In this document: positions 7,650-42,672 of the stretch, in pieces
Layout: each line of letters opens with the position of its first letter
How positions within the stretch are numbered: position 1 is the stretch's first letter
Origin: Candidatus Nanoarchaeia archaeon
Lineage (GTDB): Archaea; Nanobdellota; Nanobdellia; SCGC-AAA011-G17; JAFCDX01
Assembly: GCA_028716945.1 (NCBI GenBank)
Contig: JAQUOT010000002.1
Coordinates: 194,202-258,201 of the forward strand
Direction: 5' to 3'
Length of the DNA stretch: 64,000 bases
Notes under the pieces: model-generated
The model's database searches: none
What the model saw: only the letters and a program-made list of their open reading frames with translations
Told to the model about the DNA's origin: nothing
Translations under genes and position numbers: made by a program

Positions 7650-7982
7650 CTATTTTAAATTCTTATCTATCCACATTTTTATTTCTAATTCTGATTTTAA
7701 ACCTATAAATTCATCTACTATTTTTCCATTTTTAAACATTTTAACACTTGGAATAGCAGAAACATCATATTCTCCTGCTTTTTCTCCTGCTTCGTCTGCA
7801 TTTGCTTTTGCTAAGATAAACTTTCCTTTGTATTCTACTGCTAACTTTTCTAGAATAGGTTTTAACATTCTGCATGGACCACACCATTCTGCCCAAAAAT
7901 CTACAATTACAGGAACTTCTTTGGATTTCTTTATAACTTCTTTTTCAAAATTATCATCATTGACTTCTATTTCAAATTTCAT
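7650..7982 (-). CDS. trx: thioredoxin
   Basis: WCGPC active site. 110 aa. Confidence 0.85.
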   Translation of the reverse strand: MKFEIEVNDDNFEKEVIKKSKEVPVIVDFWAEWCGPCRMLKPILEKLAVEYKGKFILAKANADEAGEKAGEYDVSAIPSVKMFKNGKIVDEFIGLKSELEIKMWIDKNLK

Positions 7983-8548
7983 TTTGATAATACCTCTACG
8001 ATCTTATTTGCAAATTCCTTTGCAGCACTTGGACCATTTGCAGTAATTATTAATCCATCTGCTGTAACTTTATTTCCTGTATATATTGCTTTTCTTGCTG
8101 TTAGTTTTGAAGCTTCACTTGTAAATACAGTTGCTTCTCTTCCTGTTAATAATCCTGCATTTGCTAATATTACCGGAGCAAGGCATATTGCACTTACAAC
8201 TTTTGCTTCTCTATAAAAAGATTTTGCTAGATTAATTGCTTTTGTATCATTGTAATAAACTGTTGCTCCAGGTCCTCCAATAAAAACAACTGCATCGTAA
8301 TTTGTATCTGCATCATTTAACAATAAATCAACTTTTACATCTTTTCCATAAACGCTTGTTGCTCTTTCATTAGAACTAGTTGTAGTTACCTGTATTCCAT
8401 TATCTTCAAATATTTCTTTTGGAATAAAATACTCTTCATCCTTAAAGTTTTTAGGTGCAATAACCATTAACACTTTTTTATTCAAACCCATTTTAGCACA
8501 ACCACCTAACATTAAGCAGATTAATATTAATAAAATTATCCTTTTCAT
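7979..8548 (-). CDS. DJ-1/PfpI family protein with a lipoprotein signal
   Basis: N-terminal LILICLMLGGC lipobox-like signal. DJ-1 fold motif with the nucleophile elbow (AICLAP). Confidence 0.7.
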   Translation of the reverse strand: MKRIILLILICLMLGGCAKMGLNKKVLMVIAPKNFKDEEYFIPKEIFEDNGIQVTTTSSNERATSVYGKDVKVDLLLNDADTNYDAVVFIGGPGATVYYNDTKAINLAKSFYREAKVVSAICLAPVILANAGLLTGREATVFTSEASKLTARKAIYTGNKVTADGLIITANGPSAAKEFANKIVEVLSK

Positions 8549-21296: not shown

Positions 21297-21569
21297 ATGA
21301 TTAAGCGAGGAAAATTAGAAATTACAAAAGATATCTTAGAAATAATATATAATAATAAAAATTCTATAAAACCAACTCCTTTATTGAGAAAATCGAATCT
21401 TTCTTCTACAAGATTTAAAGAGTATTACACTAACCTATTAGAAAAAGGGTTTATACAAGAATTAACTGATAAAGATGGAACTAAATATATTACATTAACT
21501 GAAAAAGGTTTCAGATTTTTAGAAAAATATAAGGCTATAACTACCTTTATTGATGAATTTGAATTATAA
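21297..21569 (+). CDS. winged-helix DNA-binding protein
   Basis: 90-aa archaeal-type wHTH pattern. Confidence 0.55.
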   Translation: MIKRGKLEITKDILEIIYNNKNSIKPTPLLRKSNLSSTRFKEYYTNLLEKGFIQELTDKDGTKYITLTEKGFRFLEKYKAITTFIDEFEL

Positions 21570-21586
21570 AAAATAAAAAAAAGAAA

Positions 21587-21646
21587 TTATCTTCTTTTCT
21601 TTTTCTTAGCTTTTTTCTTAGTTTTACATCCGCAACAATTGCACAT
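21587..21646 (-). CDS. candidate micro-ORF encoding MCNCCGCKTKKKAKKKKRR
   Basis: GGAGG located 7 nt upstream of the ATG. Cys cluster plus a Lys tail. Very short, speculative. Confidence 0.15.
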   Translation of the reverse strand: MCNCCGCKTKKKAKKKKRR

Positions 21647-21658
21647 TTTTATTCCTCC

Positions 21659-21940
21659 TTATTTAACTTTCTTGTCTATGTAATTCCAAAGTTCTGCAAA
21701 TATCCATCCCATTACATAACCTGATAAAAAGGTTAATATCACTAGCATTAATGCATAAACTGCATTAAAATTAGAAACTTGCCAAACATTGTTCAAAAAG
21801 TGCAATGGAAATATCCAATCTAAGAATTTTTGTGTTAAACTTGTGCTTGCTAATATAAACAAAGCCCAAATTAAATGCAATCCACCAATAAAAATTCCTA
21901 AAGTTAAACCAAGCTTATTTGCGTCTAGTTTGTTTGCCAA
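21659..21940 (-). CDS. small membrane protein
   Basis: 93 aa with hydrophobic helices. Confidence 0.4.
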   Translation of the reverse strand: MANKLDANKLGLTLGIFIGGLHLIWALFILASTSLTQKFLDWIFPLHFLNNVWQVSNFNAVYALMLVILTFLSGYVMGWIFAELWNYIDKKVK

Positions 21941-22673
21941 AAATTACACCTCCTTTTTTGTGTTTTTTAAGCAATACTATTAAAGATATTATAAACATTA
22001 GAATACTTAAATATTGCGCTAAGGTTAATCCATAATAAAAAGGTAAATCCTTAAACATATCACAAATAAACCTAAATGCGCTGTATAATAGAATAAATAA
22101 CCAGAATATATATCCAGAAGGTAAGGTTCTTAAGAAATATAATATATTAAACAAAACAAAATTAGAAAATACTTGATATAATTGCACAGGATGTCTTAAT
22201 TCTGAATAATTATCAAATTTATATCCAAATATTGAATTAGTTACTTTTCCAACTAGTTCTTGATTAATAAAATTACCAATTCTAATAAACATAGCTCCTA
22301 AAGCAAAAGGTATTACAATAATATCTGCCAAATCATAGAATTTTATTTTATATTTCTTGCTAAACCATAAAGTCATTAATACATTTGCTATTATTGCTCC
22401 ATGACTAGATAAGCCTCCTTCCCAAGTATAAAATATTTTAATTGGATTAGCATAGAAATAATCAAAATTATAAAAAAGTATATGGAATAATCTTGCTCCA
22501 ATTATAGTTACGATTAAAACATATAAAAAGTATTTATCTATTAATTTTAGATCTATTTTTTTCTCTTTAGCTAATTTTCTTAATAAAAAATAACCTATAA
22601 GAAAACCTAAAGCCATTAATATTCCATACCAAGTTGCCTTTAATGGACCTAAACTAAATGCTACTGGATTCAT
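21915..22673 (-). CDS. lgt: prolipoprotein diacylglyceryl transferase homologue
   Basis: Multi-TM protein with an Lgt-like N-terminus (WYGILMALGFLIGYFL) and an RIGNFINQEL(V)G signature-like block. Confidence 0.7.
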   Translation of the reverse strand: MNPVAFSLGPLKATWYGILMALGFLIGYFLLRKLAKEKKIDLKLIDKYFLYVLIVTIIGARLFHILFYNFDYFYANPIKIFYTWEGGLSSHGAIIANVLMTLWFSKKYKIKFYDLADIIVIPFALGAMFIRIGNFINQELVGKVTNSIFGYKFDNYSELRHPVQLYQVFSNFVLFNILYFLRTLPSGYIFWLFILLYSAFRFICDMFKDLPFYYGLTLAQYLSILMFIISLIVLLKKHKKGGVIFGKQTRRK

Positions 22674-22704: not shown

Positions 22705-23253
22705 TTAAGGTTTTACTTTTAATAACTCTAAAGCTTTATTGTATGAATTATCTCCTTTGAAATATAATTCAACGTTTTCACCAAATAAAAAGTTTATTTC
22801 ATTTCCATGGACATGAGTTTGTATATATTTTGCATCTTTATTCATATTTACAACATTTGTTTGTCTTATATACCTCACTGGAAGCATAATAGAACCAGCT
22901 AACAATCCCCAGTTATGATAATTATTTCCAAAACTTATATCAGCATCTTCATAATATTTATGAACATGTCTATTTGTAGGAATTATAAGGTTATCAAAAC
23001 CTTTATTTTCTTTGTATTCTACCTTTTCTCCATTAATTATACCTAAATAAGACCTAAATTTTGTCCTTAAAGGAACGTATTCAACACAACGCTCCATATT
23101 TGGATGACGACCAGAACCACCCTCTTTTGTTAAGGAATCATCTTTTTGAGTCTGCATATTTATTATAAGAATTTGATTTCCAAGATTTGATTTTAATAAT
23201 CCAGTTAATTCATCATAATGTAATTTTTGTTTTATTTCTGCAGGTATTTCCAT
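22705..23253 (-). CDS. hypothetical protein (possibly cupin-like)
   Basis: 182-aa ORF. Confidence 0.45.
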   Translation of the reverse strand: MEIPAEIKQKLHYDELTGLLKSNLGNQILIINMQTQKDDSLTKEGGSGRHPNMERCVEYVPLRTKFRSYLGIINGEKVEYKENKGFDNLIIPTNRHVHKYYEDADISFGNNYHNWGLLAGSIMLPVRYIRQTNVVNMNKDAKYIQTHVHGNEINFLFGENVELYFKGDNSYNKALELLKVKP

Positions 23254-23325: not shown

Positions 23326-24363
23326 TTAACCACAACTAGCTGTTGGAGTTGTGCTTGTTGCAGAACCTGTAACTGCTAAAGTTCCTGAACATTCACTTGG
23401 TGCTGTGGTATAAGCGTCACATATTGCAGTTTTATAAGCATCTGCGCCTCTTGATCCTGAATAATCTACTCCATTTATTATTAAAGTTGGAGAGCCTTGA
23501 ACCCCATATTTAGTATTCAATGTTACTTGTTCTGCTAATAAAGTTGTAGCTTGTTTATCATAACATGATTTTACTTTAGTTACATCAACTTTTACAGCTT
23601 TTGCTACAGTTTCCCAACAAGTATCTACGTTTTTATAAGTACAATCTGTTGAAACTTTTAATACATAATCCCAGAATTTATCTTTCTGTTCATTAAAGAT
23701 ACATAATTGTCTTACATCTTCATGTACTTCTTGTGCACCGTGCATTGAACAGTATTTTTCTTCTTTATCAAAGCAGTAATCTAATGGTTGTGCTCCTGCA
23801 TTTGTTGCGTAATCAGAATAAATAACATATCTTGGTATTATTTCAGTATTTTTTAATAATTTAGCAACTGGTGCCATAGCTTGCATTGCTTGTATACCAT
23901 AAGGACAATATGACATTACGAATAATTCTACTTTTGCTTTAGCTAATTTAGGAATATTTTTTTGTTGTGTTTGTGTTCCTTGATTTGTTAAAGATGTTTT
24001 AAAGTCATCAACGTTAATTAACCCCATTCCAGATAAAATTATATTTTTTCCGTCTTTTGTTGCATATACAGGAATTTCATTTCCATTGTATTCTACATTA
24101 ATCAAATATAATCCAGATTCTTCAGAAACATCTTTTAATGTTACAGTTCCTGTTTTAACTAAATAAGTATTAACAAATTTAACAGTATCTTCTGCTACTG
24201 CATTTTTGCTGCTACATCCTGAGAATTGCATAACTACCAATACAACAAAAGCAACTGCAAGAATAATAGTAGCTATTTGCCATCCATTTGTTTTTTTAAT
24301 CTTATGATGTACATTAGAAATATGATGTCTCACTTTTGATTCTTTTTTAATTTCGTCTTCCAT
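23326..24363 (-). CDS. membrane-anchored extracytoplasmic thioredoxin-fold protein (DsbA-like)
   Basis: N-terminal TM. CPYG (CxxC) thioredoxin-fold motif. C-terminal Cys-rich tail. Confidence 0.55.
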   Translation of the reverse strand: MEDEIKKESKVRHHISNVHHKIKKTNGWQIATIILAVAFVVLVVMQFSGCSSKNAVAEDTVKFVNTYLVKTGTVTLKDVSEESGLYLINVEYNGNEIPVYATKDGKNIILSGMGLINVDDFKTSLTNQGTQTQQKNIPKLAKAKVELFVMSYCPYGIQAMQAMAPVAKLLKNTEIIPRYVIYSDYATNAGAQPLDYCFDKEEKYCSMHGAQEVHEDVRQLCIFNEQKDKFWDYVLKVSTDCTYKNVDTCWETVAKAVKVDVTKVKSCYDKQATTLLAEQVTLNTKYGVQGSPTLIINGVDYSGSRGADAYKTAICDAYTTAPSECSGTLAVTGSATSTTPTASCG

Positions 24364-24421: not shown

Positions 24422-24934
24422 TCAAATTATTTTATATTTCATAGAATCTTGTTCAAACGTATAACCTTCAGCAAATATAATGTCCTTGCTAAATATACCC
24501 ATTTTATTAATAGAACATTGCACTATTGTTAATTCTAACCCATATTGATAATAATCTCCTCCAAAACTAAACATATCAGAATCACTTAGTTCACACAATC
24601 CTCTTGGGTGCATATGCCAGGTTCCTATAACATCCGCATATCTATGATCTGAACCACAAGCTTCATATTTCATAGTATTTACCTGAGTACTAATTATTGT
24701 TGGTTCGTATATATTACTAATTTTCCAACCTTCTAAGGTTTTTTCTCCTCTTACACATCTTGTTGTTTCTTCTTGGTTGTTTTCATAAATATTATTAAAA
24801 TCAGTCATTATGTTTTGAGGTATTTCAACGACTCTTTCTTGAAAAACTGCTCTTCCAGTTACATAACTGCTTATAAAAAAGAGTATTATTAGAATTGTCG
24901 CAATAGAAATTTTATTTCCGTTTTTGTTTTTCAA
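24422..24934 (-). CDS. JAMM/MPN+ metalloprotease domain protein with an N-terminal signal-anchor
   Basis: VIGTWHMHPRGLCELSDSD matches the JAMM HxHx7Sx2D motif (compare Rpn11 WYHSHPGFGCWLSGVD). N-terminal TM helix. Confidence 0.6.
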   Translation of the reverse strand: MKNKNGNKISIATILIILFFISSYVTGRAVFQERVVEIPQNIMTDFNNIYENNQEETTRCVRGEKTLEGWKISNIYEPTIISTQVNTMKYEACGSDHRYADVIGTWHMHPRGLCELSDSDMFSFGGDYYQYGLELTIVQCSINKMGIFSKDIIFAEGYTFEQDSMKYKII

Positions 24935-31576: not shown

Positions 31577-32338
31577 TTATTTCTTTAATAGTTTCCTTAG
31601 CTCTTCTGTTTTTTTAACAGCTAAGTCAACCATTTCCTCTATTTCTTTGTCTGTTAATGCTTGATCTCCACCTTTTTGCATAGCACATAATTGTTTACCA
31701 ATTGTAGCTATAGTCAATCTTGCATCTGCTGCTTTTTCTTCTTCTCTGCTTGGATCTATAAACAGATGGTTGTCAATTTTAACAACAGTGCATTCAACAG
31801 GCACTTTGGATAAAGGAATACCTTTACTAGTTTTTTTAGTGTAATCTACTTTTTCATCTTTGTATTCTGGTAATTTAGCATCTTGTAATGCTGCAATTCC
31901 AGCCAAAGCTGCTGCATCAAATAAGTTTCCATCATCATTCATTGGATAAATATCTAATAATACCATCCAAACTTTTTCTCCTTTTTTAATGCATAATTTT
32001 TTAGTATCTATTGTACCAGATTCTCTAATACCTCTATCAACAACTCTTGATAATTCTATAGCTTCTATAGAAGGTGGACCAGATTCAAAATCTGGATTTG
32101 CCAAAGGTAATAATTCTGAATTAACCATTAAAACTCCATCGTCTGGAGTATCTGGAAAAGGTGTACCTACTTCCATTTTAACACCAGCTAATACAACAGT
32201 TTTTCCCATCGTAACTCTTGCAGAACCTTCTGCATTTTCTAATGGACTATATTCAACTTTTACTGGTCTGTATTCATCAAATTTTCTGTTATCTAATCTA
32301 AATCCTTTTTCTGCTAAAGTATGTACGTGTGATTTCAT
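31577..32338 (-). CDS. rrp42: exosome complex RNase PH-like subunit Rrp42
   Basis: RNase PH fold pattern. Overlaps rrp41 by 4 nt. Confidence 0.8.
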   Translation of the reverse strand: MKSHVHTLAEKGFRLDNRKFDEYRPVKVEYSPLENAEGSARVTMGKTVVLAGVKMEVGTPFPDTPDDGVLMVNSELLPLANPDFESGPPSIEAIELSRVVDRGIRESGTIDTKKLCIKKGEKVWMVLLDIYPMNDDGNLFDAAALAGIAALQDAKLPEYKDEKVDYTKKTSKGIPLSKVPVECTVVKIDNHLFIDPSREEEKAADARLTIATIGKQLCAMQKGGDQALTDKEIEEMVDLAVKKTEELRKLLKK

Positions 32339-33021
32339 TTTCCGTATTTCTCCCTTAAAGCTTTTTTCTGTACTTCATATACTTTTTCACAAGCTTTTTT
32401 TCCTATTTTCATAAATTCTTTTATGTCGTCTTTTTCTACAATACCATCCATTTGCATTAAAGTTATTGCTCCAGTTCTAGGCATCATAGCTATTGGAAAA
32501 TCAACACCTTCTTCTGCTGAATCTTCTTCATAATTTAAATCTGCAATAAAATCACCTTTGAATTTTCCAGCAGAAACAGCTGAAACTAAATCTCTCATTG
32601 GTATTCCTGCATCTGCAAGAGCCATTGCTGCAGCGCTAATTCCTGCACATCTTGTTCCAGCATCTGTATTTATCAATTCAACATAAACATCTACTACTGC
32701 ATTTGGAAATGCTGATAAATCCACAGCAGGTAATAATGCTTTTTCTGTTACTAAAGATATTTCTCTTGATCTTCTAGATGGACCTGGTCTAACTCTTTCT
32801 CCACCGCTGGAAAAAGATATCATATTATAATTGCATCTCAAAACTCCAACTTCTGGATTTTGTAAATATGCTTGGAAATCTCTAGGACCATAGACTGCTG
32901 CAATTGCTGTTGTTTTTCCAATTTTGAACATAGCTGAACCAGCTGCGTTTGGAATAACTCCAACTTTTGCTTCCATCTTTCTTAATTCGTCAAATTTTCT
33001 TCCATCAATTCTCTTTACCAT
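32335..33021 (-). CDS. rrp41: exosome complex exonuclease Rrp41
   Basis: GRKFDELR...GSAMFKIGKTTAIAAVYGP is the RNase PH catalytic-subunit pattern. Confidence 0.88.
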   Translation of the reverse strand: MVKRIDGRKFDELRKMEAKVGVIPNAAGSAMFKIGKTTAIAAVYGPRDFQAYLQNPEVGVLRCNYNMISFSSGGERVRPGPSRRSREISLVTEKALLPAVDLSAFPNAVVDVYVELINTDAGTRCAGISAAAMALADAGIPMRDLVSAVSAGKFKGDFIADLNYEEDSAEEGVDFPIAMMPRTGAITLMQMDGIVEKDDIKEFMKIGKKACEKVYEVQKKALREKYGK

Positions 33022-33023
33022 TT

Positions 33024-33788
33024 TTATTTCTCCTTCTTCTTGGATTCTTTTTCTTCTTTAACTTCTTCTTTTTTCTCTTCAACTTTTTTTTCTTTTTTGA
33101 TTCCAAGTTTATCATTTAAATATTTTTCAATACTATCAGTAAGACCTTCGGATTGGCTTTCTTTGTCTATAATATCAATAGCATCTACTGCTACTTTTTC
33201 CTTAATAGGATCTAATCCTGATATCCAAACATTTCCGTTTTGTCCTACCAAAATTCTTGTTTCTGTCTTTTCTTTAATCATAGTTATCATAGAACCTTGT
33301 TTTCCAATTAATCTTGGAACTTTTGAAGGTGTAATTTGTATCATTCTTCCTTCTGTAAGTTTTCTTAATCCAGGACCTTTCATTCCTAAATCAATAACTT
33401 TGGATCCAGATACATTTACAATTCTTACCATTAATATATCTCCAATATTATAAAATTGTGTTAAGTCTGTTCCACGTTCTATAAATTCTTGTGTTGCGTC
33501 TTTCAAAGATAACATTGCCTGATAAGCCCATCTGATATCTACTCTCCATCCCCAAGGGCCAATATCAACAACTTTTCCAATAACAACATCGTCCCTTCTT
33601 GGTATGTAAGGACCTGTTAAAGGAATTATTTTTATTAATCTTCCATTAAGGTTTACTAAACCTACCATAGAAGAAATTATATTATCTTCTTCTCTAAATG
33701 TTCCATGAGCAGGTAAAAAATCCATACCTTTTGCTAAAATTTGCCCAGGAATCACTACTTCTTTTTCCTGTACTAGTAATTCTGACAT
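33024..33788 (-). CDS. rrp4: exosome RNA-binding subunit Rrp4 (S1 + KH), Lys/Glu-rich C-terminal tail
   Basis: S1 and KH (LIGKQGSMI) motifs. Confidence 0.85.
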   Translation of the reverse strand: MSELLVQEKEVVIPGQILAKGMDFLPAHGTFREEDNIISSMVGLVNLNGRLIKIIPLTGPYIPRRDDVVIGKVVDIGPWGWRVDIRWAYQAMLSLKDATQEFIERGTDLTQFYNIGDILMVRIVNVSGSKVIDLGMKGPGLRKLTEGRMIQITPSKVPRLIGKQGSMITMIKEKTETRILVGQNGNVWISGLDPIKEKVAVDAIDIIDKESQSEGLTDSIEKYLNDKLGIKKEKKVEEKKEEVKEEKESKKKEK

Positions 33789-33803
33789 TTTTTCATTTCT
33801 CCT

Positions 33804-34505
33804 TTAAAATTTTCTGACTATATCAACGACAACTTGTCCATGTGTTGCCTTGTTTAGAGCATCTAATAAATCTTCTTGCATTCCTGCTGGAATTTCAAGA
33901 GATACTTTCAATGATCCATCATTTTCATAGTTTTCTTTTATTAATTTACCGAACATTTTTAATGTACCATATGTTTTACCAACATGTTCTGGTTTTATTT
34001 TTATGGACAATTCTCTTTTTTCATATTTTATTGGTAAAATCTCTCTTAATTGTTTTATTACGTCTTCAACCTGTCCTTCAGCGGTTTTAGTTGCATTAAT
34101 ATTTACTCTAGCTTCTTTCATTGCCATTTCAATTCTTGCTGTAGGATGAGGAAATCCAGTTTTTGAGTCTACTGTATTTTTATGAATAATATCTACTATT
34201 CTTTTTTTCTTTTCGTCTTGTAGTTTATTTTTGTGTTCTGTAGTTAATTGTATTTCTCCTTCTCTTACTATACGTTCAATTATTGCATTTTTATCTGTTG
34301 TTTTGAAAACAGCTTGCAGTTCCTTTTCAGGACTGTGCTCTGCTTGCTTAACATCAGAGAAAACATCATCGGTTACTAAAACTTCAGATATATTTTTTAT
34401 TTTTCCTTCTCTAAATAGAATTGCTTTGTCGCAATCTACTAATATTTCAAAGGTTTTTCCTTCACGTTTAAAACGTGCAATAACTGAACTTTCAATATTC
34501 GTCAT
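33804..34505 (-). CDS. sdo1: ribosome maturation protein SBDS/Sdo1
   Basis: SBDS N-terminal FYSN-like domain pattern. Located in the superoperon. Confidence 0.8.
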   Translation of the reverse strand: MTNIESSVIARFKREGKTFEILVDCDKAILFREGKIKNISEVLVTDDVFSDVKQAEHSPEKELQAVFKTTDKNAIIERIVREGEIQLTTEHKNKLQDEKKKRIVDIIHKNTVDSKTGFPHPTARIEMAMKEARVNINATKTAEGQVEDVIKQLREILPIKYEKRELSIKIKPEHVGKTYGTLKMFGKLIKENYENDGSLKVSLEIPAGMQEDLLDALNKATHGQVVVDIVRKF

Positions 34506-34513
34506 TTTTACAA

Positions 34514-35227
34514 TTAATTATTATATTTTTTTAAGTCTGGAACATCTAATCTTACAAATTTCTTATCTGCAGATTTTATATAAGCTCCATCTATTCTTGC
34601 TAAATCAAAATCTTTATTCAAGACTTTTTTAAGCATTTTTATTGTTAATTTTATTCCTTCTTCTATTGTTATGTTGTCTTTGTATTCTTTATCAAGCATT
34701 TCTTTTATTTCAACTTCTGCTTCTCCAATTGCTGTTGCTTTGTATTGGAAAAATATTCCAGTAACATCAGTCAAGAATAATCTTGGTTCACTTTCATCTA
34801 TTCCACCAAAAATTATTGAAACTCCAAATGGTCTTCCTCCACCATATTGTGTATATGCTTGTTTTACATTACAAATTTCTTTTACTAAAGTCATTGTATC
34901 AATAGGATTGTCATAAGTAACTTTGTGCTGCTGAGCTAATAATTGAGCTCTTTCAATTAATATTCTTGCATCGCTAATAATACCGGATGCACCTGCTGCA
35001 ATATGATCATCTACTTGGAAAATTTTCTCAATAGATTTTGCAACTATGAACTTGTCAAAAATTCTTTTGTCAGCCATTATTAAAACACCATCTTTACATA
35101 CTAGACCAACTGTTGTACTTCCTTGTTTTACTGTTTTTTTTGCGTATTCTGCTTGTAATAATCTTCCATCTGGACTAAACATAGCACTTCTATCATATCC
35201 CATCATTTGTGACATATTTGTTTGCAT
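34514..35227 (-). CDS. psmA: proteasome alpha subunit
   Basis: YDRSAMFSPDGRLLQAEYA N-terminal signature. Confidence 0.9.
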   Translation of the reverse strand: MQTNMSQMMGYDRSAMFSPDGRLLQAEYAKKTVKQGSTTVGLVCKDGVLIMADKRIFDKFIVAKSIEKIFQVDDHIAAGASGIISDARILIERAQLLAQQHKVTYDNPIDTMTLVKEICNVKQAYTQYGGGRPFGVSIIFGGIDESEPRLFLTDVTGIFFQYKATAIGEAEVEIKEMLDKEYKDNITIEEGIKLTIKMLKKVLNKDFDLARIDGAYIKSADKKFVRLDVPDLKKYNN

Positions 35228-35239
35228 TTTATTCCTCCT

Positions 35240-35590
35240 TTAATTTAGATATCTAAATTTTGCTTTTTTTAATATTCCTGAAACACCAAGGCATTTAACA
35301 ATTACCTTTTTGTTATTTATTTCTTTTATTAAAGAAAAACAAGATTTGAGAGCGTCAGTATATTTATTATTAACAAACATAATACCTTTAGAAGTATTAT
35401 TTTGTGTTTTCCAGTCTTCTAACATTATTAAATTAGCTTTTGCCAATCCAAATTTCCCGTAATATTCTTTGTAAGTTTCCATTATTGTATTTTCAGCGCT
35501 AGCTTTATTAATTGGGCTTTCAGATATAACCTCGAAAGCAACATACCTCTTCTTTTCTCTTAAGCTAGGCATTAAAGCTTTTAACTTCAT
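35240..35590 (-). CDS. rnp2: RNase P protein component 2 (Pop5/Rpp14)
   Basis: LREKKRYVAFEVISE motif. First gene of the superoperon. Confidence 0.7.
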   Translation of the reverse strand: MKLKALMPSLREKKRYVAFEVISESPINKASAENTIMETYKEYYGKFGLAKANLIMLEDWKTQNNTSKGIMFVNNKYTDALKSCFSLIKEINNKKVIVKCLGVSGILKKAKFRYLN

Positions 35591-35732
35591 TTTATCAAGT
35601 TTTTAGGAGAATTAAACAATTATTTTTTCAAAATCTTCTCCATCTCTCGCATATACTCTAAAATATACTTATATTTAAATTTTGTGTATTTTATAGAAAT
35701 AAGTTTATATATTAAGAAATTTACTTAAATAT

Positions 35733-36485
35733 ATGATTTCGGGTGTTATATGGTTATACAGCTTAGTTAGCGTATTAATTATTAGCTTGATTTCTTTAAT
35801 AGGTATTTTTTCTTTGAAAATAAAAATTGAAAAATTAAAGCAAATTTTGATTTATTTCATAAGTTTTTCAGCAGGAGCTTTGTTAGGAGATGCATTTATA
35901 CATTTAATTCCAAGTTTGTTCAAAGAAAGTTCTGCTATAATTTCTGCTTTAACTATTTTACTAGGAATAATCTTATTTTTTATTCTAGAAAAAGTAATAC
36001 ATTGGAGACATTGTCATATACCAATTACAAAAGAGCACGTGCATCCTTTAGCTTATATGAATTTAGTTGGAGATTCTTTACATAATTTCATTGATGGATT
36101 AATTATAGCAGGATCTTATTTAATTAATATTCAAGTTGGAATTGCAACAACTCTTGCAGTTATATTACATGAAATTCCACAAGAAATAGGAGACTTTGGA
36201 GTTTTACTACATGCAGGATTAAAAAGAACAAAAGCATTATTTTTAAATTTTGTAACAGGTTTAACAGCAATACTAGGAACAATAATTGCTTTAATATTAA
36301 CTAATTATATTTCAAATTTGCAATTTTATATAACCGGAATTGCAATTGGTGGATTTATTTATATTGCAGGAAGTGATTTAATTCCAGAAATGCACAAAGA
36401 AGTTAAATTAGAAAAATCAATTTTACAATTAGTATTTTTAATTCTAGGAATTTTAGTAATGTTAAGTTTATTATTGTTAGAATAA
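35733..36485 (+). CDS. ZIP family metal (zinc) transporter
   Basis: HEIPQEIGDFGVLL motif. Eight TM helices. Confidence 0.85.
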   Translation: MISGVIWLYSLVSVLIISLISLIGIFSLKIKIEKLKQILIYFISFSAGALLGDAFIHLIPSLFKESSAIISALTILLGIILFFILEKVIHWRHCHIPITKEHVHPLAYMNLVGDSLHNFIDGLIIAGSYLINIQVGIATTLAVILHEIPQEIGDFGVLLHAGLKRTKALFLNFVTGLTAILGTIIALILTNYISNLQFYITGIAIGGFIYIAGSDLIPEMHKEVKLEKSILQLVFLILGILVMLSLLLLE

Positions 36486-36492
36486 ATAAATT

Positions 36493-36930
36493 TTATTTCT
36501 CTTTTTCTAAAGGATAATTGTCACATATTCTAGATATTTCATCTATAACTTGCTGAGAAGTAACTATAAAATCATGGTCTGTATCTAAATCTCTAAGTTT
36601 ATCAGTTAGTTCATCTTTATATTTAGCAATATTATTTAAATCAAATTTTTTGGTTTTAGAAACACCACAATTACCTTTACCATAATTATGAAACATCGCA
36701 TCTCCATCTTTTACAGCCTGCATTACAAATAAATGTTCAGCCCCCATAAAATCAGTTTCATAAGGACCTAATTTGCAAACATAATCCGATTTTAATATCT
36801 TGGTAGCTCTTAAGCTAGGCTCATATTTACAGACATCTTCTATACTCTGTACAGTGGGTTTAGAACAACTAATTAGACCTGTTGCAATAATTAATCCTGT
36901 TATAAAATTCCTTAAAGTTTTATATACCAT
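36493..36930 (-). CDS. small lipoprotein (lipobox LISC)
   Basis: Signal sequence ending GLISCSK. Confidence 0.45.
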   Translation of the reverse strand: MVYKTLRNFITGLIIATGLISCSKPTVQSIEDVCKYEPSLRATKILKSDYVCKLGPYETDFMGAEHLFVMQAVKDGDAMFHNYGKGNCGVSKTKKFDLNNIAKYKDELTDKLRDLDTDHDFIVTSQQVIDEISRICDNYPLEKEK

Positions 36931-36977
36931 TTTAACCCCAGAAAAGTAGTCAATAATCTAATATTTAAATGTTTTGG

Positions 36978-37484
36978 TTAAAACTGATACAATTCTAGAT
37001 AATTTTTAACTTCATCCATCATATCATATAAGTCATTATACAAATCAATTTTATATTCATCTATGTTTTTCTTCATCATGTGTTTTTTATAAATTCTATT
37101 TGTAAGGCTATCATCAGGCCATCTATCATTTGCATTAACAATTAAATACGCACTAAATCTCAATTCCATATCTGCTTTTTTTAATTTTATAGTTTTTCCT
37201 TCTTTTTCAACTTCAACAGGAGTTACTCCTAAAATAAAGAAAGTTACTTCTAAAACTGCAGTACAATAATCACTTACTTCGTTTTTACAAGTCCATTTGA
37301 TTTCAATTTGTTTTCCATTAGGTTTCATTCTTTCAGTATAATTATCTTCATTGAATCCTTCTTTTTCATCACCATAACCTTTAAAATCCAACCAGAATTT
37401 CATTTTTCTATAAAGATCTTCTAAATCAAAAGTTCCAACGAATTTTAACTTTAAACCTTTACCTACAATCTCTTTTTCTGACAT
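36978..37484 (-). CDS. hypothetical protein, paralogue of the downstream neighbour
   Basis: Shared motifs with 37497-37973 (WxEGERE/KWTCKNE...D(Y)...LKVEFF/LEVTFF...W). Confidence 0.5.
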   Translation of the reverse strand: MSEKEIVGKGLKLKFVGTFDLEDLYRKMKFWLDFKGYGDEKEGFNEDNYTERMKPNGKQIEIKWTCKNEVSDYCTAVLEVTFFILGVTPVEVEKEGKTIKLKKADMELRFSAYLIVNANDRWPDDSLTNRIYKKHMMKKNIDEYKIDLYNDLYDMMDEVKNYLELYQF

Positions 37485-37496
37485 CTTTCCTCTTTT

Positions 37497-37973
37497 TTAT
37501 TCTAAATGTTCTTTAGCCATATCATGTAAGGCATATGCATCTGCTTTTAATTTAGCTTCATAAGGCCCTACAATATCCCCTTTAATAATATAATTATTAT
37601 ATAAATACATTAAAAATTTACTTATGGCTGTAGTCTGCCATTTTTTTCTATAATCCAATACTATATGAGCCCAGAAAGTCATTTTAATATTTCCAGTTTC
37701 TCTTCCATCTATTTTCTTTAAACCTTCAACAAAAAATTCTACCTTAAGAAAGAATTTAGTATAATCATCAAACTCTCTTTCTCCTTCCCAAATAATTCTC
37801 ATTTCTTTATAATGGCCTTTATCTTTTTCAGTATGTTCTTTTTCATGGAAATCATATCTATGTTCATCAAACCAAGCTTTCATATCTTTGTATAATTCAT
37901 TAAACTTAAAGAAACCTTTTTTTCTAATTTGTATTCCATTGCTTGGAAGAACGTTATATTTTGGTTTTATCAT
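37497..37973 (-). CDS. hypothetical protein, paralogue of the upstream neighbour
   Basis: Tandem duplicate of 36978-37484. Confidence 0.5.
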   Translation of the reverse strand: MIKPKYNVLPSNGIQIRKKGFFKFNELYKDMKAWFDEHRYDFHEKEHTEKDKGHYKEMRIIWEGEREFDDYTKFFLKVEFFVEGLKKIDGRETGNIKMTFWAHIVLDYRKKWQTTAISKFLMYLYNNYIIKGDIVGPYEAKLKADAYALHDMAKEHLE

Positions 37974-37995
37974 ATTTTTTATTTAGTTTTATAAT

Positions 37996-38553
37996 TTATA
38001 AATATTCTGCTATTTTGGTTAGAGCTGTTTTTGCTTGTTTTGTATTTAAACCTAAGCTTATTCCCAAAGATTCTAAGTCTTCTGCAGATCTTAGTTCAGA
38101 TTTAGATTTAGCTAAAGTAAATATTAATACAGGCACTTTAAATTTCTTACATAAGCTAATGTTTTGTATTATCTTTTTTAACAAGAAAACATCTGCGTTT
38201 TGTATATAGTCTAAAGAATAACCTATTGAAATATTGTGTTTTTGAGCCAAATCACATAAAATATGATTTAAACCAGAATTTATTCCTTTTACAGTTTCTC
38301 TTTTTTTAGTTTCTGGGTTTAATAAAATATTAACGCTTTTTGAAGATAGAGCAATTCTGTTTAATTCTTCATAACCTCCTTCAACTATCATTAATCCTTT
38401 TTTATTTTTTATATTTTTAGAATTTGTTATTATATCTTCTTTGTTAATAAAAAATACATTAGAAAAACCTAAGGTTCTAGCAAAAGCGATTATATCTTCT
38501 TTATTGGTTTTAATTAAAACTAAATCATACATAATTAATCTAAAATAAGTCAA
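37996..38553 (-). CDS. rnp3: RNase P protein component 3 (Rpp30-like)
   Basis: GLNHILCDLAQKHNISIGYSL resembles the Rpp30 core (GIDHVLAKL..NVALGFSL in Pyrococcus). Confidence 0.55.
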   Translation of the reverse strand: MTYFRLIMYDLVLIKTNKEDIIAFARTLGFSNVFFINKEDIITNSKNIKNKKGLMIVEGGYEELNRIALSSKSVNILLNPETKKRETVKGINSGLNHILCDLAQKHNISIGYSLDYIQNADVFLLKKIIQNISLCKKFKVPVLIFTLAKSKSELRSAEDLESLGISLGLNTKQAKTALTKIAEYL

Positions 38554-39401: not shown

Positions 39402-41090
39402 ATGAGTAGAATCAAGAATCTGTTAGTAGGACTAGGATTAACAGCTTTATCACTTATTTCTACAAACTGTGGAAATGGAAGTTCTGTAGAAACTATTAAA
39501 TCTATTAATGTTCCAGATATAGAACAGACACAACCAAATCAAAATTGTAGTTATGATAATAACTTTCCAAAGAATTTAGAATTAAAAGTATCTAATGATA
39601 AATATACTTATAGTTTTCCTGAAAATGTAAAAATAAATAACAGATTATCTTATTTACAAAATTGTAGTCAATTTGTAAGTTATAACGGAAATCAATTTAC
39701 TATAAACCCATTAGATACTTGTGAAGATGCAATAGTTTTTGAAACAGAAGATACTAAAAATAATTGTAATCAAACCTATGCTTTAAAATTAAAAATTAAT
39801 GAACCTGATTGCGCAGAAGTAGATTTACCTGAAGAAATAGAAATGAAAATAGGAGAATCTTATAATAAAACCCTTTCTGGAAATATACCTATAATTATAG
39901 AAGATAATAAATTTGTTAAATTAGATGGAAGAAACATAAAAATAATTAAACCTTGGCATATTTATGATAAAAATATAAATATTCATTCTACTGAAAAAAT
40001 AACTCCTTTATACAATTGTGAAAAAGATAAAAAAATAAATGTAAAAATAAATACAATAACTGGAAAAGATGGAACAATTTATTCATATTATAAACCAATA
40101 AATAGCACAAATATTTTAGTATGTGATCAAACAGAAAGTACTCCTTGTCCTTTTGAAAAAAATGAATTTGCTTCTCTGGAGACACCATATATTCTTTTAA
40201 AAGAAGCAATTAAAAAATTAGAAGAAATTACAACTACAAAAGTTTTTGAAAAGTATGCTCCTTTTAAAATACATTTAAATGCAAGTCCAAATGATTCTGC
40301 AAGTTCAACTATTGTAAAAAAAGAAGACTGGAATAAAGTTAAAGCTGGAGGTTTTATTGGAGGAGAACATGTTTATATATTTCAATATGATTGGGCAACA
40401 AATCCAGAATGGCCTATTTTTTGTCTAAATTTAGAAAATCCAACGCAAGAACCTTTAGAACCTACTGAAACTTGTCAATGCGTAGGAAATGCTGCAACAG
40501 AAAAAAATGTTTGTAAATCTATTTTAAATTGGAATAAAGGAACTTATTTTAGAAATCCAGAAACCGATATTAATCCCTGGTTTATACATGAACTTGTTCA
40601 CGAAAGAGATCCTTCTCCAAGAATATTAAGAAAGGGTTCTGATCCTTATTATACAGATTTATATTTACCAGAAAATACAGCAAATTCATTAGAAACTATT
40701 ACTTCTGGAGTTGTACAAGGTTGGATTGCAGGAAAACCATATTTTATAACAAAAGAAATTAATTCTTTTTGTGATTTACCTTTAGGAACAGATTATACTT
40801 ATTTTAGAGCAATGTGTATTCTTACAGACCATGCCTTTGATGTAGAAGCTATGCCTAAATATTTTGAATATCTTTGGAAAGCTTATGAACACAATCAAGA
40901 AATTAGTGATAGATTATTAACTTCTTCAGAAGATGCTAAATGTGCTACAGATCATGCTACAGGATTAAATACTTATGAATGGTTCTGTGAATTTTCTAAT
41001 TGTAATCAAAAGATATGGCCAAATGGAGAAAAAGATTTTTATTATGTTCCTTTAGAATATTGTGGAGAATTATCTCATATTGATAAATAA
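39402..41090 (+). CDS. secreted lipoprotein (lipobox STNC), Cys-rich
   Basis: Signal peptide LTALSLISTNCGNG. Confidence 0.5.
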   Translation: MSRIKNLLVGLGLTALSLISTNCGNGSSVETIKSINVPDIEQTQPNQNCSYDNNFPKNLELKVSNDKYTYSFPENVKINNRLSYLQNCSQFVSYNGNQFTINPLDTCEDAIVFETEDTKNNCNQTYALKLKINEPDCAEVDLPEEIEMKIGESYNKTLSGNIPIIIEDNKFVKLDGRNIKIIKPWHIYDKNINIHSTEKITPLYNCEKDKKINVKINTITGKDGTIYSYYKPINSTNILVCDQTESTPCPFEKNEFASLETPYILLKEAIKKLEEITTTKVFEKYAPFKIHLNASPNDSASSTIVKKEDWNKVKAGGFIGGEHVYIFQYDWATNPEWPIFCLNLENPTQEPLEPTETCQCVGNAATEKNVCKSILNWNKGTYFRNPETDINPWFIHELVHERDPSPRILRKGSDPYYTDLYLPENTANSLETITSGVVQGWIAGKPYFITKEINSFCDLPLGTDYTYFRAMCILTDHAFDVEAMPKYFEYLWKAYEHNQEISDRLLTSSEDAKCATDHATGLNTYEWFCEFSNCNQKIWPNGEKDFYYVPLEYCGELSHIDK

Positions 41091-41091: not shown

Positions 41092-42672
41092 TTAACCTGT
41101 AGCAGGATTAGTTAAATAATCCCCATAAGTATTAATTTTAACTTCACAACTAGTTATTCCACATTCACAAGTACTTCCAGGAGTTAAATCACACATACGG
41201 ATTCCCCAATTTACATCTCCAGTACAAGATTTTTTATGCCAAACAACTGTATTACCATAAATATCTGGACTATCTTCATGACAATTCGAAGAAGTTATTC
41301 TAGTTTCTGTACTTGTATCAAAATCATACATATAAATATCATTATTTCCATTTCTACCATCTTGCCATACTACTTTACTTCCATAAATTTTTGGATTAAA
41401 TTGGCCAGGAATAGGATTTAATGATATTGTTGTACTTGTAGTTAAATCATATGCATAAATAATATTTTTATTGGCTCCACCTTGATAAACAACTTTATTT
41501 CCATATACATCCCCATAGAGCCCTGTATCAGTTATTAATTTTTCAGCAATTCCACATTCATAAGTACTTCCAGGAGTCAAATCACACATATAAATATTAT
41601 ACATAGATTGCCAAGTAATTTTATTATCTTTAAATGATTGTGGATTTTTATTATTTGAACTAAACATTGTTATTCTTCTATCATTATTAGTTCCACATTC
41701 ATAAGTACTTCCAGGAGTCAAATCACACATATAAACATCCCCAACACTAGCCGGATAAAGAGCATTTCTATAATCATTCCAAATTATTTTATTATCATAT
41801 ATAAAAGGAGAATTTAAAGCATAAGAATTACTAGTTATTCTTCTTTCTTGATCTTTACCTAGATCATATGCATAAATATCATATCTATATGTACCCCCAT
41901 CCTCATTTCTTTGGTCTTGCCAAGCAATTATATTACCATTAACTGCGGGGAATAATGAAGTATACTGGTTATTTGTTATTTGTTTTATTTCATTTGTAAT
42001 AAGATTTTTCACCATTATTACTTTTTTATTTACAGTAGAATTTTCATAAACAACAAAACTAGCAGCATTTACAGGGAATATTTCTCCTTCACAACTTCCA
42101 GTCTCTTGATTACAAGTTCCTCCCCTCAATCCACAGTTTTGTACAAAAGTTAATTCTCCATTTTGGCATTGAGCTAATTTATTAATATATTTTGAATTTT
42201 CCGGAGCACACATATATTCTCTATTTGTCAAGAAAAAAGGATAAAGAGTTTCATCATTTAATGGAATAACACTAACACAATTTGTAGTATTACATTCAGA
42301 AATAGTACTGCAATCTTGACTACGCCATTCTACTCCTCCAAAGGTATCTCCAAGTTTAGTATTAATTAAAGATCTAAAATTATCATCACATTTAGCTTGA
42401 CTTTCACAATCAGTAATAGGATTTCCATTTTTATCATATCCACAATAAGTTTCATTGATACCTCTTGTTAAAAAACTTTTAACACACCCAAGAGTATTAC
42501 TACTCATATCTTTAAGAACACAACAATGAGGAGCGTATTCTAATTTTGGTAAATTCTCTCCAGAAATAGGTATAAAACAACTTGAAGATATAAAAGTTAA
42601 AGAAACAAAAATTAAGATAGATATTAAAAAGAAATGTATATGAAGATCTTTATATTTACTCTTTTTTAACAT
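41092..42672 (-). CDS. secreted protein with PD40/TolB-like beta-propeller repeats and a triple YMCDLTPGSTYECG repeat
   Basis: Repeats of the type IYAYDL...ITS. Three near-identical CDLTPGSTxECG units. Confidence 0.5.
   Translation of the reverse strand: MLKKSKYKDLHIHFFLISILIFVSLTFISSSCFIPISGENLPKLEYAPHCCVLKDMSSNTLGCVKSFLTRGINETYCGYDKNGNPITDCESQAKCDDNFRSLINTKLGDTFGGVEWRSQDCSTISECNTTNCVSVIPLNDETLYPFFLTNREYMCAPENSKYINKLAQCQNGELTFVQNCGLRGGTCNQETGSCEGEIFPVNAASFVVYENSTVNKKVIMVKNLITNEIKQITNNQYTSLFPAVNGNIIAWQDQRNEDGGTYRYDIYAYDLGKDQERRITSNSYALNSPFIYDNKIIWNDYRNALYPASVGDVYMCDLTPGSTYECGTNNDRRITMFSSNNKNPQSFKDNKITWQSMYNIYMCDLTPGSTYECGIAEKLITDTGLYGDVYGNKVVYQGGANKNIIYAYDLTTSTTISLNPIPGQFNPKIYGSKVVWQDGRNGNNDIYMYDFDTSTETRITSSNCHEDSPDIYGNTVVWHKKSCTGDVNWGIRMCDLTPGSTCECGITSCEVKINTYGDYLTNPATG

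What the first reader, a model, noticed from the sequence alone, without database searches (positions are those of the whole stretch)
21915..22673. Bacterial-type Lgt homologue together with classical lipobox proteins in an archaeon
A multi-TM protein with an Lgt-like N-terminus and an RIGNFINQELVG signature-like block is encoded here. Several nearby secreted proteins carry textbook bacterial lipoboxes: DJ-1 at 7979-8548 (LMLGGC), 36493-36930 (GLISC) and 39402-41090 (ISTNC). Archaeal lipobox proteins are known, but canonical Lgt homologues are generally not found in archaea. This suggests an acquired bacterial-style lipoprotein anchoring route.
Basis: partly seen in the sequence, partly recalled or inferred. 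Interest (0 to 1): 0.6.

Follow-up and report, generated by a model that had tools for sequence, protein, structure and literature searches.

The report
Canonical bacterial-type Lgt in DPANN archaeon
A tiny-genome archaeon (Nanoarchaeia, DPANN) encodes a complete, conserved copy of Lgt, the bacterial enzyme that lipid-anchors secreted proteins; recent papers say archaea lack this enzyme, yet it turns out to be widespread in this archaeal lineage.

Summary
The ORF at 21915-22673 (-), 252 aa, is a genuine Lgt. It scores 218.5 bits on PF01790 (cut-off 24.9) and 163.4 on TIGR00544 (cut-off 118.9). Its AlphaFold model (pLDDT 92.6) matches only E. coli Lgt (5azb, TM 0.81). The key E. coli residues Y26, H103, R143, N146, E151, G154, Y235 and R239 are conserved, and E243 is Asp.

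The contig is archaeal: it carries the exosome superoperon, RNase P protein subunits, proteasome alpha and a ThrRS with the archaea-specific editing domain. Its source is a Candidatus Nanoarchaeia MAG. An independent assembly reproduces the locus, and lgt codon composition matches the host.

Relatives at 41-93% identity lie on at least ten archaeal contigs of up to 910 kb (Woesearchaeota/Nanoarchaeia). Catalytic residues are near-invariant across 119 sequences.

Lipobox substrates exist. The DJ-1 lipobox is conserved in orthologues, including one on an archaeal contig.

No Lsp, Lnt or AliA could be found or tested in the sequence available. The donor lipid is unknown.

Papers from 2018 to 2026 state that Lgt is absent from archaea, although databases already label these MAG proteins as Lgt. 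Verdict: a new member of a known kind, of moderate-to-high interest.

The parts
21915..22673 (-). lgt: Lgt-family prolipoprotein lipid (diacylglyceryl-type) transferase, 252 aa, 7 TM helices, minimal head domain
   Evidence: PF01790 218.5 bits. TIGR00544 163.4 bits against a cut-off of 118.9. AF2 pLDDT 92.6. Foldseek finds only 5azb, TM 0.81. Catalytic residues are conserved.
23326..24363 (-). Membrane-anchored extracytoplasmic thioredoxin-fold protein (CPYG motif, GSPT cis-Pro loop, C-terminal Cys). It is a conserved neighbour of lgt and carries a lipobox-like FSGC at Cys50 in this genome.
   Evidence: Pfam VSR_TRX, Thioredoxin_4 and DSBA. Homologues lie directly upstream of lgt in L001, L002, L003 and L009/L010, where Lgt identity ranges from 93% down to 41%. 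The lipobox Cys is present only in the window and L001.
22705..23253 (-). 182-aa ORF of unknown function between the Trx-fold gene and lgt, 31 nt upstream of lgt
   Evidence: No Pfam hit. Found only in the window and L001. Gap structure.
21659..21940 (-). 93-aa small membrane protein that overlaps the lgt 3' end by 26 nt
   Evidence: Conserved only in the closest relative, L001; not homologous to the small ORFs downstream of lgt in other loci.
24422..24934 (-). 170-aa N-terminally anchored protein with an intact JAMM-like H-x-H...S-x-x-D motif, in the same gene string
   Evidence: Sequence. Conserved upstream of the Trx-lgt pair in L001 and L002. No Pfam hit at E<=1e-3.
7979..8548 (-). DJ-1/PfpI family protein with signal peptide and lipobox (LGGC, Cys17): predicted Lgt substrate
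   Evidence: PF01965. Passes PS51257. Its ATG abuts the upstream stop codon. The lipobox is conserved in the closest long-form orthologues: 27 of 62 long forms pass PS51257 against 0 of 58 short forms. One lipobox-bearing orthologue lies on an archaeal contig.
36493..36930 (-). 145-aa Cys-containing secreted protein with a canonical lipobox (LISC, Cys22): predicted Lgt substrate
41092..42672 (-). 526-aa secreted repeat protein with a PS51257-passing lipobox (ISSSC, Cys32): possible Lgt substrate
39402..41090 (+). 562-aa secreted Cys-rich protein. A Cys follows the h-region, but the lipobox is non-canonical (STNC, Asn at -1).
31577..38553 (-). Archaeal exosome superoperon (Rrp42/41, Rrp4, SBDS, proteasome alpha, RNase P Pop5 and Rpp30). 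It establishes that the contig is archaeal.
   Evidence: RpoK/Rpb6 is also called at the equivalent position in the independent assembly.
56559..58430 (+). ThrRS with the archaea-specific editing domain (taxonomic marker)
   Evidence: PF08915 158 bits.

Best explanation
The gene encodes an active Lgt-family enzyme of a Nanoarchaeia (DPANN) archaeon. Like bacterial Lgt, it sits in the cytoplasmic membrane with seven TM helices. It binds a phosphoglycerol-headed membrane lipid through the conserved Arg pair (R131/R201, equivalent to E. coli R143/R239). It then transfers the lipid's glyceryl-lipid moiety to the thiol of the +1 Cys of lipobox signal peptides on Sec-exported proteins, giving a thioether lipid anchor. 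Candidate substrates here are the DJ-1/PfpI protein, the 145-aa protein and the 526-aa protein.

The gene belongs to a CPR/Bacillota-like, small-head Lgt type. It was most likely acquired from bacteria long ago and has since been inherited within Woesearchaeota/Pacearchaeota-type Nanoarchaeia.

Shown: family membership, fold, catalytic residue conservation, archaeal host, wide distribution in DPANN, and presence and conservation of lipobox substrates.

Inferred: the enzymatic activity, the donor lipid (bacterial-type phosphatidylglycerol or archaetidylglycerol, probably scavenged), the signal-peptide cleavage step (no Lsp seen), and the direction of transfer.
For: - Profile and structure: PF01790 218.5 bits and TIGR00544 above its equivalog cut-off. 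The AF2 model has pLDDT 92.6 and its only significant PDB match is E. coli Lgt 5azb (TM 0.81, E 7.7e-14).
- Catalytic residues: Y26, H103, D129, R143, N146, E151, G154, H196, Y235 and R239 are conserved in the query, and E243 is Asp. Across 119 archaeal-clade sequences, Y26, R143, N146 and G154 are 100% conserved, E151 99%, R239 98%, H103 96%, and position 243 is E or D in 98%.
- Archaeal host: exosome superoperon, RNase P proteins, proteasome alpha and archaeal ThrRS on the same contig. A neighbouring gene is 100% identical to a Ca. Nanoarchaeia MAG protein. The identical Lgt occurs in the same synteny in an independent Logan assembly. lgt GC3 is 0.142 against a host mean of 0.136 +/- 0.032.
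- Distribution: Lgt relatives lie on archaeal contigs of 20-910 kb, flanked by S17e, Alba, tRNA-intron endonuclease, Sec61beta, NAC, S19e, L31e, L15e, RpoL, S6e, fibrillarin or Nop5.
- Substrates: three genes pass PS51257. The DJ-1 lipobox is conserved in the closest long-form orthologues, one of them on an archaeal contig.
Against: No biochemical data exist for any archaeal Lgt. No Lsp (PF01252) was seen in the window, its 10 kb extensions or any related locus. The downstream step of the bacterial route is therefore unaccounted for.

The natural donor, phosphatidylglycerol with sn-glycerol-3-phosphate ester lipids, is not the standard archaeal lipid, and no lipid-synthesis genes are present in the window. 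AliA (arCOG02177) is reported in DPANN 'with some gaps', so lipidation in this organism could depend on AliA instead; I could not test for AliA.

E243 is Asp, E202 is Gln, and G142 of the signature motif is Ile. The raw lipobox count in the window is only about 3 against roughly 1 expected false positive.
Confidence: 0.8

Rival explanations
1. This is an Lgt-fold enzyme with a changed job. It retains the catalytic core but acts on a different acceptor or donor, for example lipid remodelling or handling of scavenged host lipid rather than lipoprotein anchoring. Lipoprotein lipidation in this archaeon would then be done by AliA-type enzymes.
For: AliA is reported in DPANN. No Lsp partner was seen in any context (see the calls listed under the best explanation). 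The arms and head differ from E. coli Lgt: the head is 19 residues instead of 42. The 2026 mBio paper notes that some Lgt paralogues with altered residues may use other substrates. The conserved neighbour is a thioredoxin-fold protein rather than a lipoprotein-pathway gene.
Against: Every residue implicated in catalysis and in phosphoglycerol-head binding is retained and near-invariant over 119 sequences. The small head and the L[AS]SHGA motif are shared with ordinary CPR and Bacillota Lgts. Lipobox proteins are present and the lipobox is conserved in DPANN orthologues. The protein passes the NCBIfam equivalog threshold.
Confidence: 0.12
2. Contamination, mis-binning or assembly chimera: the lgt gene is bacterial DNA wrongly joined to archaeal sequence.
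For: The family is otherwise bacterial. DPANN and CPR organisms co-occur in the same samples. Other bacterial-type genes sit on the same contig (sigma-70, MacB-type ABC transporter).
Against: lgt sits inside a same-strand gene string 9 kb from the archaeal exosome superoperon. The same arrangement appears in an independent Logan assembly and, at 93% identity, in a 766 kb Nanoarchaeia contig. More than ten further archaeal contigs carry Lgt next to archaeal ribosomal or informational genes. GC3 is identical to the host.
Confidence: 0.02
3. The gene is an ancient vertical inheritance rather than a bacterial import. Lgt would have been present in the archaeal ancestor, retained in Nanoarchaeia, and replaced elsewhere by its proposed radical derivative AliA.
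For: [quoted passage not shown] The DPANN Lgts are diverse (41-93% identity), fully ameliorated, and not cleanly nested inside one bacterial phylum in my tree.
Against: The archaeal sequences interleave with CPR and Bacillota sequences at 35-41% identity and share their specific motifs. All named archaeal hits fall in Nanoarchaeia-type DPANN only. This lineage is known for many bacterial imports, including sigma-70, GroEL, DnaK and the MEP pathway.
Confidence: 0.08

Closest known systems
Bacterial Lgt (phosphatidylglycerol:prolipoprotein diacylglyceryl transferase; E. coli Lgt, PDB 5azb/5azc; PF01790, TIGR00544)
   Same: Full-length homology and a seven-TM fold (TM 0.81). The H103-G-G/A motif and the R143-x-G-N146-F-x-N-x-E151-L-x-G154 signature are present. 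Y26, Y235 and R239 are retained. The lipobox-type substrates are the same kind.
   Different: The host is an archaeon. The head domain is about 19 residues against 42 in E. coli. G142 is Ile, E243 is Asp and E202 is Gln. The donor lipid in an archaeal (or scavenged) membrane is unknown. No Lsp partner was detected in the sequence available.
Small-head Lgts of CPR (Peregrinibacteria) and Bacillota
   Same: These are the nearest named bacterial relatives, at about 35-41% identity. They share the L[AS]SHGA and F[IV]R[IL]GNF motifs and a 19-27 residue head. They interleave with the archaeal sequences in the tree.
   Different: They are encoded next to bacterial cell-wall genes (PBP transpeptidase and Mur ligase in L013). 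The archaeal versions sit next to archaeal informational genes and are often paired with a thioredoxin-fold membrane protein.
AliA/AliB (arCOG02177/arCOG02178), the archaeal lipoprotein lipidation components of Haloferax volcanii (Hong et al. 2025, PMC12462473)
   Same: The proposed job is the same: thioether lipidation of the lipobox Cys. Both are membrane proteins with two functionally important arginines. AliA is also reported in DPANN.

Membership tests
Lgt (PF01790 / TIGR00544) | Score above the curated profile thresholds over the full length | tested here: met
   PF01790 218.5 bits against 24.9, profile positions 1-239 of 240. TIGR00544 163.4 bits against 118.9.
Lgt (PF01790 / TIGR00544) | Seven-TM Lgt fold with arm and head subdomains | tested here: met
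   AF2 model with pLDDT 92.6 and pTM 0.87, showing seven long helices. The only significant PDB match is 5azb (TMq 0.81, E 7.7e-14). The head is reduced to about 19 residues, as in CPR and Bacillota Lgts. This is a prediction, not a solved structure.
Lgt (PF01790 / TIGR00544) | Lgt signature motif G142-R143-L-G-N146-F-I-N-G-E151-L-W-G154 and the H103-G-G-L motif | tested here: met
   The query reads I-R-I-G-N-F-I-N-Q-E-L-V-G and S-H-G-A-I. R143, N146, E151, G154 and H103 are all present; G142 is replaced by Ile, as in its CPR and Bacillota neighbours.
Lgt (PF01790 / TIGR00544) | Essential residues Y26, Y235, R239 and E243 | tested here: met
   The query has Y16, Y197, R201 and D205 (a conservative E to D change). 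Across 119 clade members, Y26 is 100% conserved, R239 98%, and position 243 is E or D in 98%. Y235 is variable (Y, F or D).
Lgt (PF01790 / TIGR00544) | Lipobox-bearing preprolipoprotein substrates encoded by the same organism | tested here: met
   Three real genes in the window pass PS51257. The DJ-1 lipobox is conserved among orthologues, including one on an archaeal contig. Genome-wide enrichment was not testable.
Lgt (PF01790 / TIGR00544) | Catalyses transfer of diacylglyceryl from phosphatidylglycerol to the lipobox Cys | not testable with these tools
   This needs an in vitro assay or complementation. The donor lipid in this archaeon is unknown.
Complete bacterial lipoprotein pathway (Lgt-Lsp-(Lnt)) | Presence of signal peptidase II (Lsp, PF01252) in the same genome | tested here: inconclusive
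   No PF01252 hit among all window ORFs of at least 90 aa, the 10 kb extensions or any related archaeal locus. The rest of the roughly 1 Mb genome could not be searched.
AliA/AliB (arCOG02177/02178) | Membership of arCOG02177/02178, a family not detectably similar to PF01790 | tested here: not met
   The ORF is a strong PF01790 member, whereas AliA reaches only 29% HHpred probability to PF01790. Whether a separate AliA gene exists elsewhere in this genome was not testable: no AliA sequence was available and afdb50 was offline.

The most novel reading that the evidence does not exclude
In Woesearchaeota/Pacearchaeota-type Nanoarchaeia, a bacterial-family Lgt has replaced (or supplements) the archaeal AliA system and fills the reported 'gaps' of AliA in DPANN. 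It would work on whatever phosphoglycerol lipid these lipid-scavenging cells carry. That means one of two things. Either Lgt has adapted to archaetidylglycerol, an ether-linked isoprenoid lipid of opposite glycerol stereochemistry, and so operates across the 'lipid divide'. Or these archaea carry bacterial-type ester phospholipids taken from bacterial hosts.
Probability: 0.35. Interest if true: 0.8.

Novelty: new member of a known kind. Interest (0 to 1): 0.6.

Why it matters
[quoted passage not shown] That absence was the premise for the search that found AliA/AliB. The mBio statement came from a RefSeq survey that omits most DPANN MAGs.

A canonical, conserved Lgt on many unambiguously archaeal contigs shows the statement is too broad. 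At least one large archaeal lineage has the bacterial enzyme.

This has three consequences:
1. It revises the phyletic picture of lipoprotein biogenesis and bears on the proposed Lgt-to-AliA evolutionary scenario.
2. It offers a natural test of whether Lgt chemistry can use archaeal ether lipids, or whether these DPANN carry bacterial-type lipids. That in turn bears on their host range and on the lipid divide.
3. It supplies a small, easily synthesised gene for complementation in E. coli or Gram-positive lgt mutants and in H. volcanii aliA/aliB mutants.

Tried and rejected
1. Lsp search. A whole-genome search was not possible.

2. AliA hypothesis for the unannotated 228-aa multi-TM protein at 20606-21292, which sits next to an HTH gene, as reported for some ali neighbourhoods. 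It belongs to a highly conserved Woese-/Pacearchaeota family. The AF2 model (pLDDT 79.6) gives only weak GPCR/rhodopsin-like 7-TM matches in the PDB and no Lgt-like match. The afdb50 library was unavailable. There is no support for AliA, and the idea was dropped.

3. Small ORFs downstream of lgt as a conserved partner. They are not homologous across loci. Rejected.

4. The Trx-fold neighbour as a conserved lipoprotein substrate. The gene pair is conserved, but the lipobox Cys is present only in the window and L001; other orthologues use a TM anchor. Rejected as a conserved substrate.

5. Identifying the donor lineage. An NJ tree with 100 bootstraps leaves the deep nodes unsupported. Cluster name look-ups were mostly empty.

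6. RNA markers for taxonomy. The window has no tRNA or Rfam hits.

7. Supplementary tables of Hong et al. for an arCOG holding Lgt. They are not held in the library.
Full report
OBSERVATION. The ORF is exactly as described: 21915..22673 on the minus strand, ATG start, 252 aa. It matches Pfam PF01790 (LGT) over essentially the whole profile (positions 1-239 of 240) at E 1.1e-64 and 218.5 bits, against a gathering cut-off of 24.9. It exceeds the trusted cut-off of the NCBIfam equivalog TIGR00544 (163.4 against 118.9 bits). The only solved structure it matches by sequence is E. coli Lgt 5azb/5azc (E 1.9e-33). No other membrane-transferase family scored.

CATALYTIC APPARATUS AND FOLD. I aligned the ORF to E. 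coli Lgt. My typed E. coli sequence agrees with the 5azb alignment printed. The query keeps Y26, G98/G99, H103, G104, D129, R143, N146, E151, G154, H196, Y235 and R239. E243 is Asp, E202 is Gln and R246 is Lys. The periplasmic head is cut from about 42 to about 19 residues, and G142 of the signature is Ile.

An AlphaFold2 model built on a 70-sequence alignment has pLDDT 92.6 and pTM 0.87, with seven long helices. Foldseek against the PDB returns a single significant hit, 5azb (TM 0.81, E 7.7e-14); the next hit has E 0.66.

IS THE HOST REALLY AN ARCHAEON? Yes. The window has about 27% GC and no tRNA or Rfam hits. It does carry the classical archaeal exosome superoperon at 31.6-38.6 kb: two RNase PH subunits, Rrp4, SBDS, proteasome alpha, and RNase P Pop5 and Rpp30. 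It also has a ThrRS with the archaea-specific editing domain and a short archaeal-type RNase J.

A gene 600 bp from lgt is 100% identical to a protein of a 'Candidatus Nanoarchaeia archaeon' MAG (locus tag PHD81_, 268 kb contig). The identical Lgt is also found in an independent Logan assembly of run SRR22315509, with the same gene order. lgt has GC 0.241 and GC3 0.142, against a GC3 of 0.136 +/- 0.032 for the window's genes. It lies in a same-strand string with gaps of -4, 57, 58, 72, 31 and -26 nt: 573-aa ORF, Memo, JAMM-like, Trx-fold, ORF182, lgt, ORF93. Contamination or chimerism is effectively excluded.

HOW WIDESPREAD IS IT? The word-indexed search found 1477 proteins at E<=1e-10. The best 120 have 41-93% identity, and all nine that carry an organism name are Nanoarchaeia, Nanoarchaeota or Woesearchaeota MAG proteins already labelled 'prolipoprotein diacylglyceryl transferase'.

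Genomic context confirms archaeal hosts for many of them:
- A 766 kb Nanoarchaeia contig at 93% identity, syntenic with the window.
- Woesearchaeota contigs at 66% identity (L003) and 41% identity (L009/L010, from 288-910 kb contigs, with Sec61beta, NAC and Rpp30).
- A 350 kb contig with S17e and TrmB, and a 186 kb contig with Alba, S17e and tRNA-intron endonuclease.
- L014 with S19e, L31e and L15e, and L015 with RpoL and S15.
- L004 with S6e and aIF5B, and L005 with fibrillarin and Nop5. L005 is labelled 'Methanosarcinales' but has 34% GC.

Across 119 clade sequences, Y26, D129, R143, N146 and G154 are invariant. E151 is 99% conserved, R239 98%, H103 96%, and position 243 is E or D in 98%. 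That is strong purifying selection on the catalytic core.

The exhaustive search of 50%-identity representatives gives 335 clusters at E<=1e-30. The nearest members that could be classified as bacterial are:
- a Peregrinibacteria (CPR) Lgt (P0183) and a Bacillota cluster (P0249);
- P0174, on a 1 Mb contig flanked by a PBP transpeptidase and a Mur ligase.

These bacterial neighbours share the L[AS]SHGA and F[IV]R[IL]GNF motifs and the small head with the DPANN proteins. A bootstrapped NJ tree groups the archaeal, CPR and Bacillota-like sequences against Proteobacteria (94%). It leaves everything inside that group unresolved, apart from a weak 55% for the core Woese/Nanoarchaeia group. Acquisition from a CPR/Terrabacteria-like donor is the parsimonious reading. 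The direction and number of events are not established.

SUBSTRATES. I applied the PROSITE PS51257 rule to all ORFs.
- Three real genes pass: DJ-1/PfpI at 7979-8548 (LGGC, Cys17), the 145-aa protein at 36493-36930 (LISC, Cys22) and the 526-aa protein at 41092-42672 (SSSC, Cys32).
- The Trx-fold protein at 23326-24363 has FSGC after a long N-region (Cys50) and fails the position rule.
- One antisense ORF also passes, so the count alone is weak evidence.

I therefore ran an independent test. The 120 closest homologues of the DJ-1 protein split into short, signal-less forms and long forms with an N-terminal extension. None of the 58 short forms has a lipobox, whereas 27 of the 62 long forms pass PS51257. 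Nearly all of the closest long orthologues carry LVSGC, LISGC, LLLGC, LGGC, VAGC or similar. One lipobox-bearing orthologue lies on an archaeal contig with aIF2beta, Rpp14, Rpp30, L15e and RadA. In the window, the long-form ATG directly follows the stop codon of the upstream gene. This argues against the shorter start chosen by one gene caller (P0403). So the lipobox is under selection in this lineage.

NEIGHBOURHOOD. A membrane-anchored thioredoxin-fold protein lies immediately upstream of lgt, or one gene away. It has a conserved x-CPYG motif, a GSPT cis-Pro loop and a C-terminal Cys. The pairing holds in the window, L001, L002, L003 and L009/L010, while Lgt identity falls to 41%. Its lipobox is not conserved. 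I read this as a loose 'exported-protein maturation' pairing and not as enzyme plus substrate; that reading is inference.

No Lsp (PF01252) or Lnt appears anywhere in the sequence I could reach. The window also has no lipid-synthesis genes apart from a UppS-type cis-prenyltransferase.

MECHANISM (commitment). I consider it about 80% likely that this is an active Lgt that thioether-lipidates lipobox cysteines of Sec substrates. The phosphoglycerol-binding arginines and the catalytic His, Tyr, Asn and Glu set are intact, so the donor should be a lipid with a phosphoglycerol head.

Whether that donor is bacterial-type PG or archaetidylglycerol is open. Castelle et al. 2021 report bacterial G3P dehydrogenase and fatty-acid genes in some Woesearchaeota, and suggest bacterial hosts on the basis of murein-degrading enzymes. 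That makes PG plausible. Signal-peptide removal would need either an Lsp encoded elsewhere in the genome or the still-unknown archaeal lipoprotein peptidase.

COMPARISON WITH WHAT IS KNOWN. The protein is a member of the Lgt family; all sequence and structure criteria are met, and activity is untested. It is not AliA/AliB, which are barely similar to PF01790 (HHpred probability 29%).

The literature is explicit that archaea lack Lgt:
[quoted passage not shown] - 'no homologs ... have been reported in archaea' (JBC August 2026).

RefSeq and the 524-genome arCOG set largely omit DPANN MAGs, which explains the miss. The DPANN paper on bacterial imports lists sigma-70, GroEL, DnaK/J/GrpE, the MEP pathway, Ack/Pta, queuosine synthesis and Pol III, but mentions neither Lgt nor lipoproteins. 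Full-text searches that combined 'diacylglyceryl' with DPANN or lineage names found no report. NCBI and IMG pipelines, by contrast, already name these proteins Lgt.

VERDICT. This is a new member (host lineage) of a known enzyme family. It is not a new mechanism, but it contradicts a repeatedly published generalisation and opens a direct experimental question about Lgt and archaeal lipids. Interest 0.6.

Noticed in passing
window 29453-30541 (-): A 362-aa bacterial-type sigma-70 family protein (Sigma70_r2 + r4) lies on this archaeal contig, 1 kb from the exosome superoperon. It is present in the independent Logan assembly but absent from the syntenic position in the 93%-related 766 kb contig L001, so it is an indel. 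Sigma-70 in Woesearchaeota was already reported by Castelle et al. 2021.
   Followed up: partly
window 20606-21292 (+) and 21297-21569 (+): A 228-aa 7-TM protein with no Pfam family is extremely conserved across Woese-/Pacearchaeota (more than 120 homologues at 57-71% identity). It is followed by a winged-helix HTH_45 protein. The same pair recurs about 2 kb from lgt on P0026's 350 kb contig. The AF2 model (pLDDT 79.6) gives only weak GPCR/rhodopsin-like matches. Function unknown; possibly a receptor-regulator pair.
   Followed up: partly
window 23326-24363 (-); L002 2082-3086; L003 8734-9657; L009 8799-9959: The thioredoxin-fold membrane protein conserved next to lgt has a monothiol CPYG motif instead of CxxC, a GSPT cis-Pro loop, a His/Lys-rich cytoplasmic N-terminus and a conserved Cys at the extreme C-terminus.
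   Followed up: partly
window 24422-24934 (-): A 170-aa N-terminally membrane-anchored protein has a complete JAMM/MPN+ metalloprotease motif (H-M-H-x7-S-x-x-D) but no Pfam hit. It is conserved upstream of the Trx-lgt pair in L001 and L002. It might be an extracytoplasmic peptidase; any link to signal-peptide processing is pure speculation.
   Followed up: no
window ~11800-21650: A block of about 10 kb is replaced by about 3.5 kb in the closely related contig L001, so it is a variable island. It holds an ABC-2 transporter, a HEPN plus nucleotidyltransferase pair (toxin-antitoxin-like), a MacB/FtsX-type ABC transporter with a LolD-like ATPase, and the 7-TM/HTH pair.
   Followed up: partly
window 50278-56437 (-): Three large secreted proteins lie in a row: 1078 aa and 276 aa with MopE-type Cys-rich metal-binding motifs, and 700 aa with an alpha-2-macroglobulin MG2 domain. 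Many exported proteins in this window are Cys-rich, which fits the presence of an extracytoplasmic thiol-oxidoreductase.
   Followed up: no
L008 11491-13383; P0026 locus 11581-13449: A full-length bacterial-type RelA/SpoT (HD_4, RelA_SpoT, TGS, ACT) gene lies immediately downstream of lgt, followed by ThiF and ThiI, in two different Woesearchaeota-type contigs. This is a further bacterial-type gene and a conserved neighbourhood in that sub-lineage.
   Followed up: no
L005 (CAZOPU010000030.1): This contig is labelled 'uncultured Methanosarcinales archaeon' and carries an Lgt at 38% identity. It has 34% GC, fibrillarin and Nop5, and DPANN-like small pilin genes. It is probably a mis-binned DPANN contig rather than evidence of Lgt in Methanosarcinales.
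   Followed up: partly
window 7979-8548 (-): At least one public gene call (P0403, 170 aa) starts this DJ-1 gene at the internal Met20 and so removes the signal peptide and lipobox. Such start-site miscalls would make proteome-wide lipoprotein counts in DPANN underestimates.
   Followed up: yes
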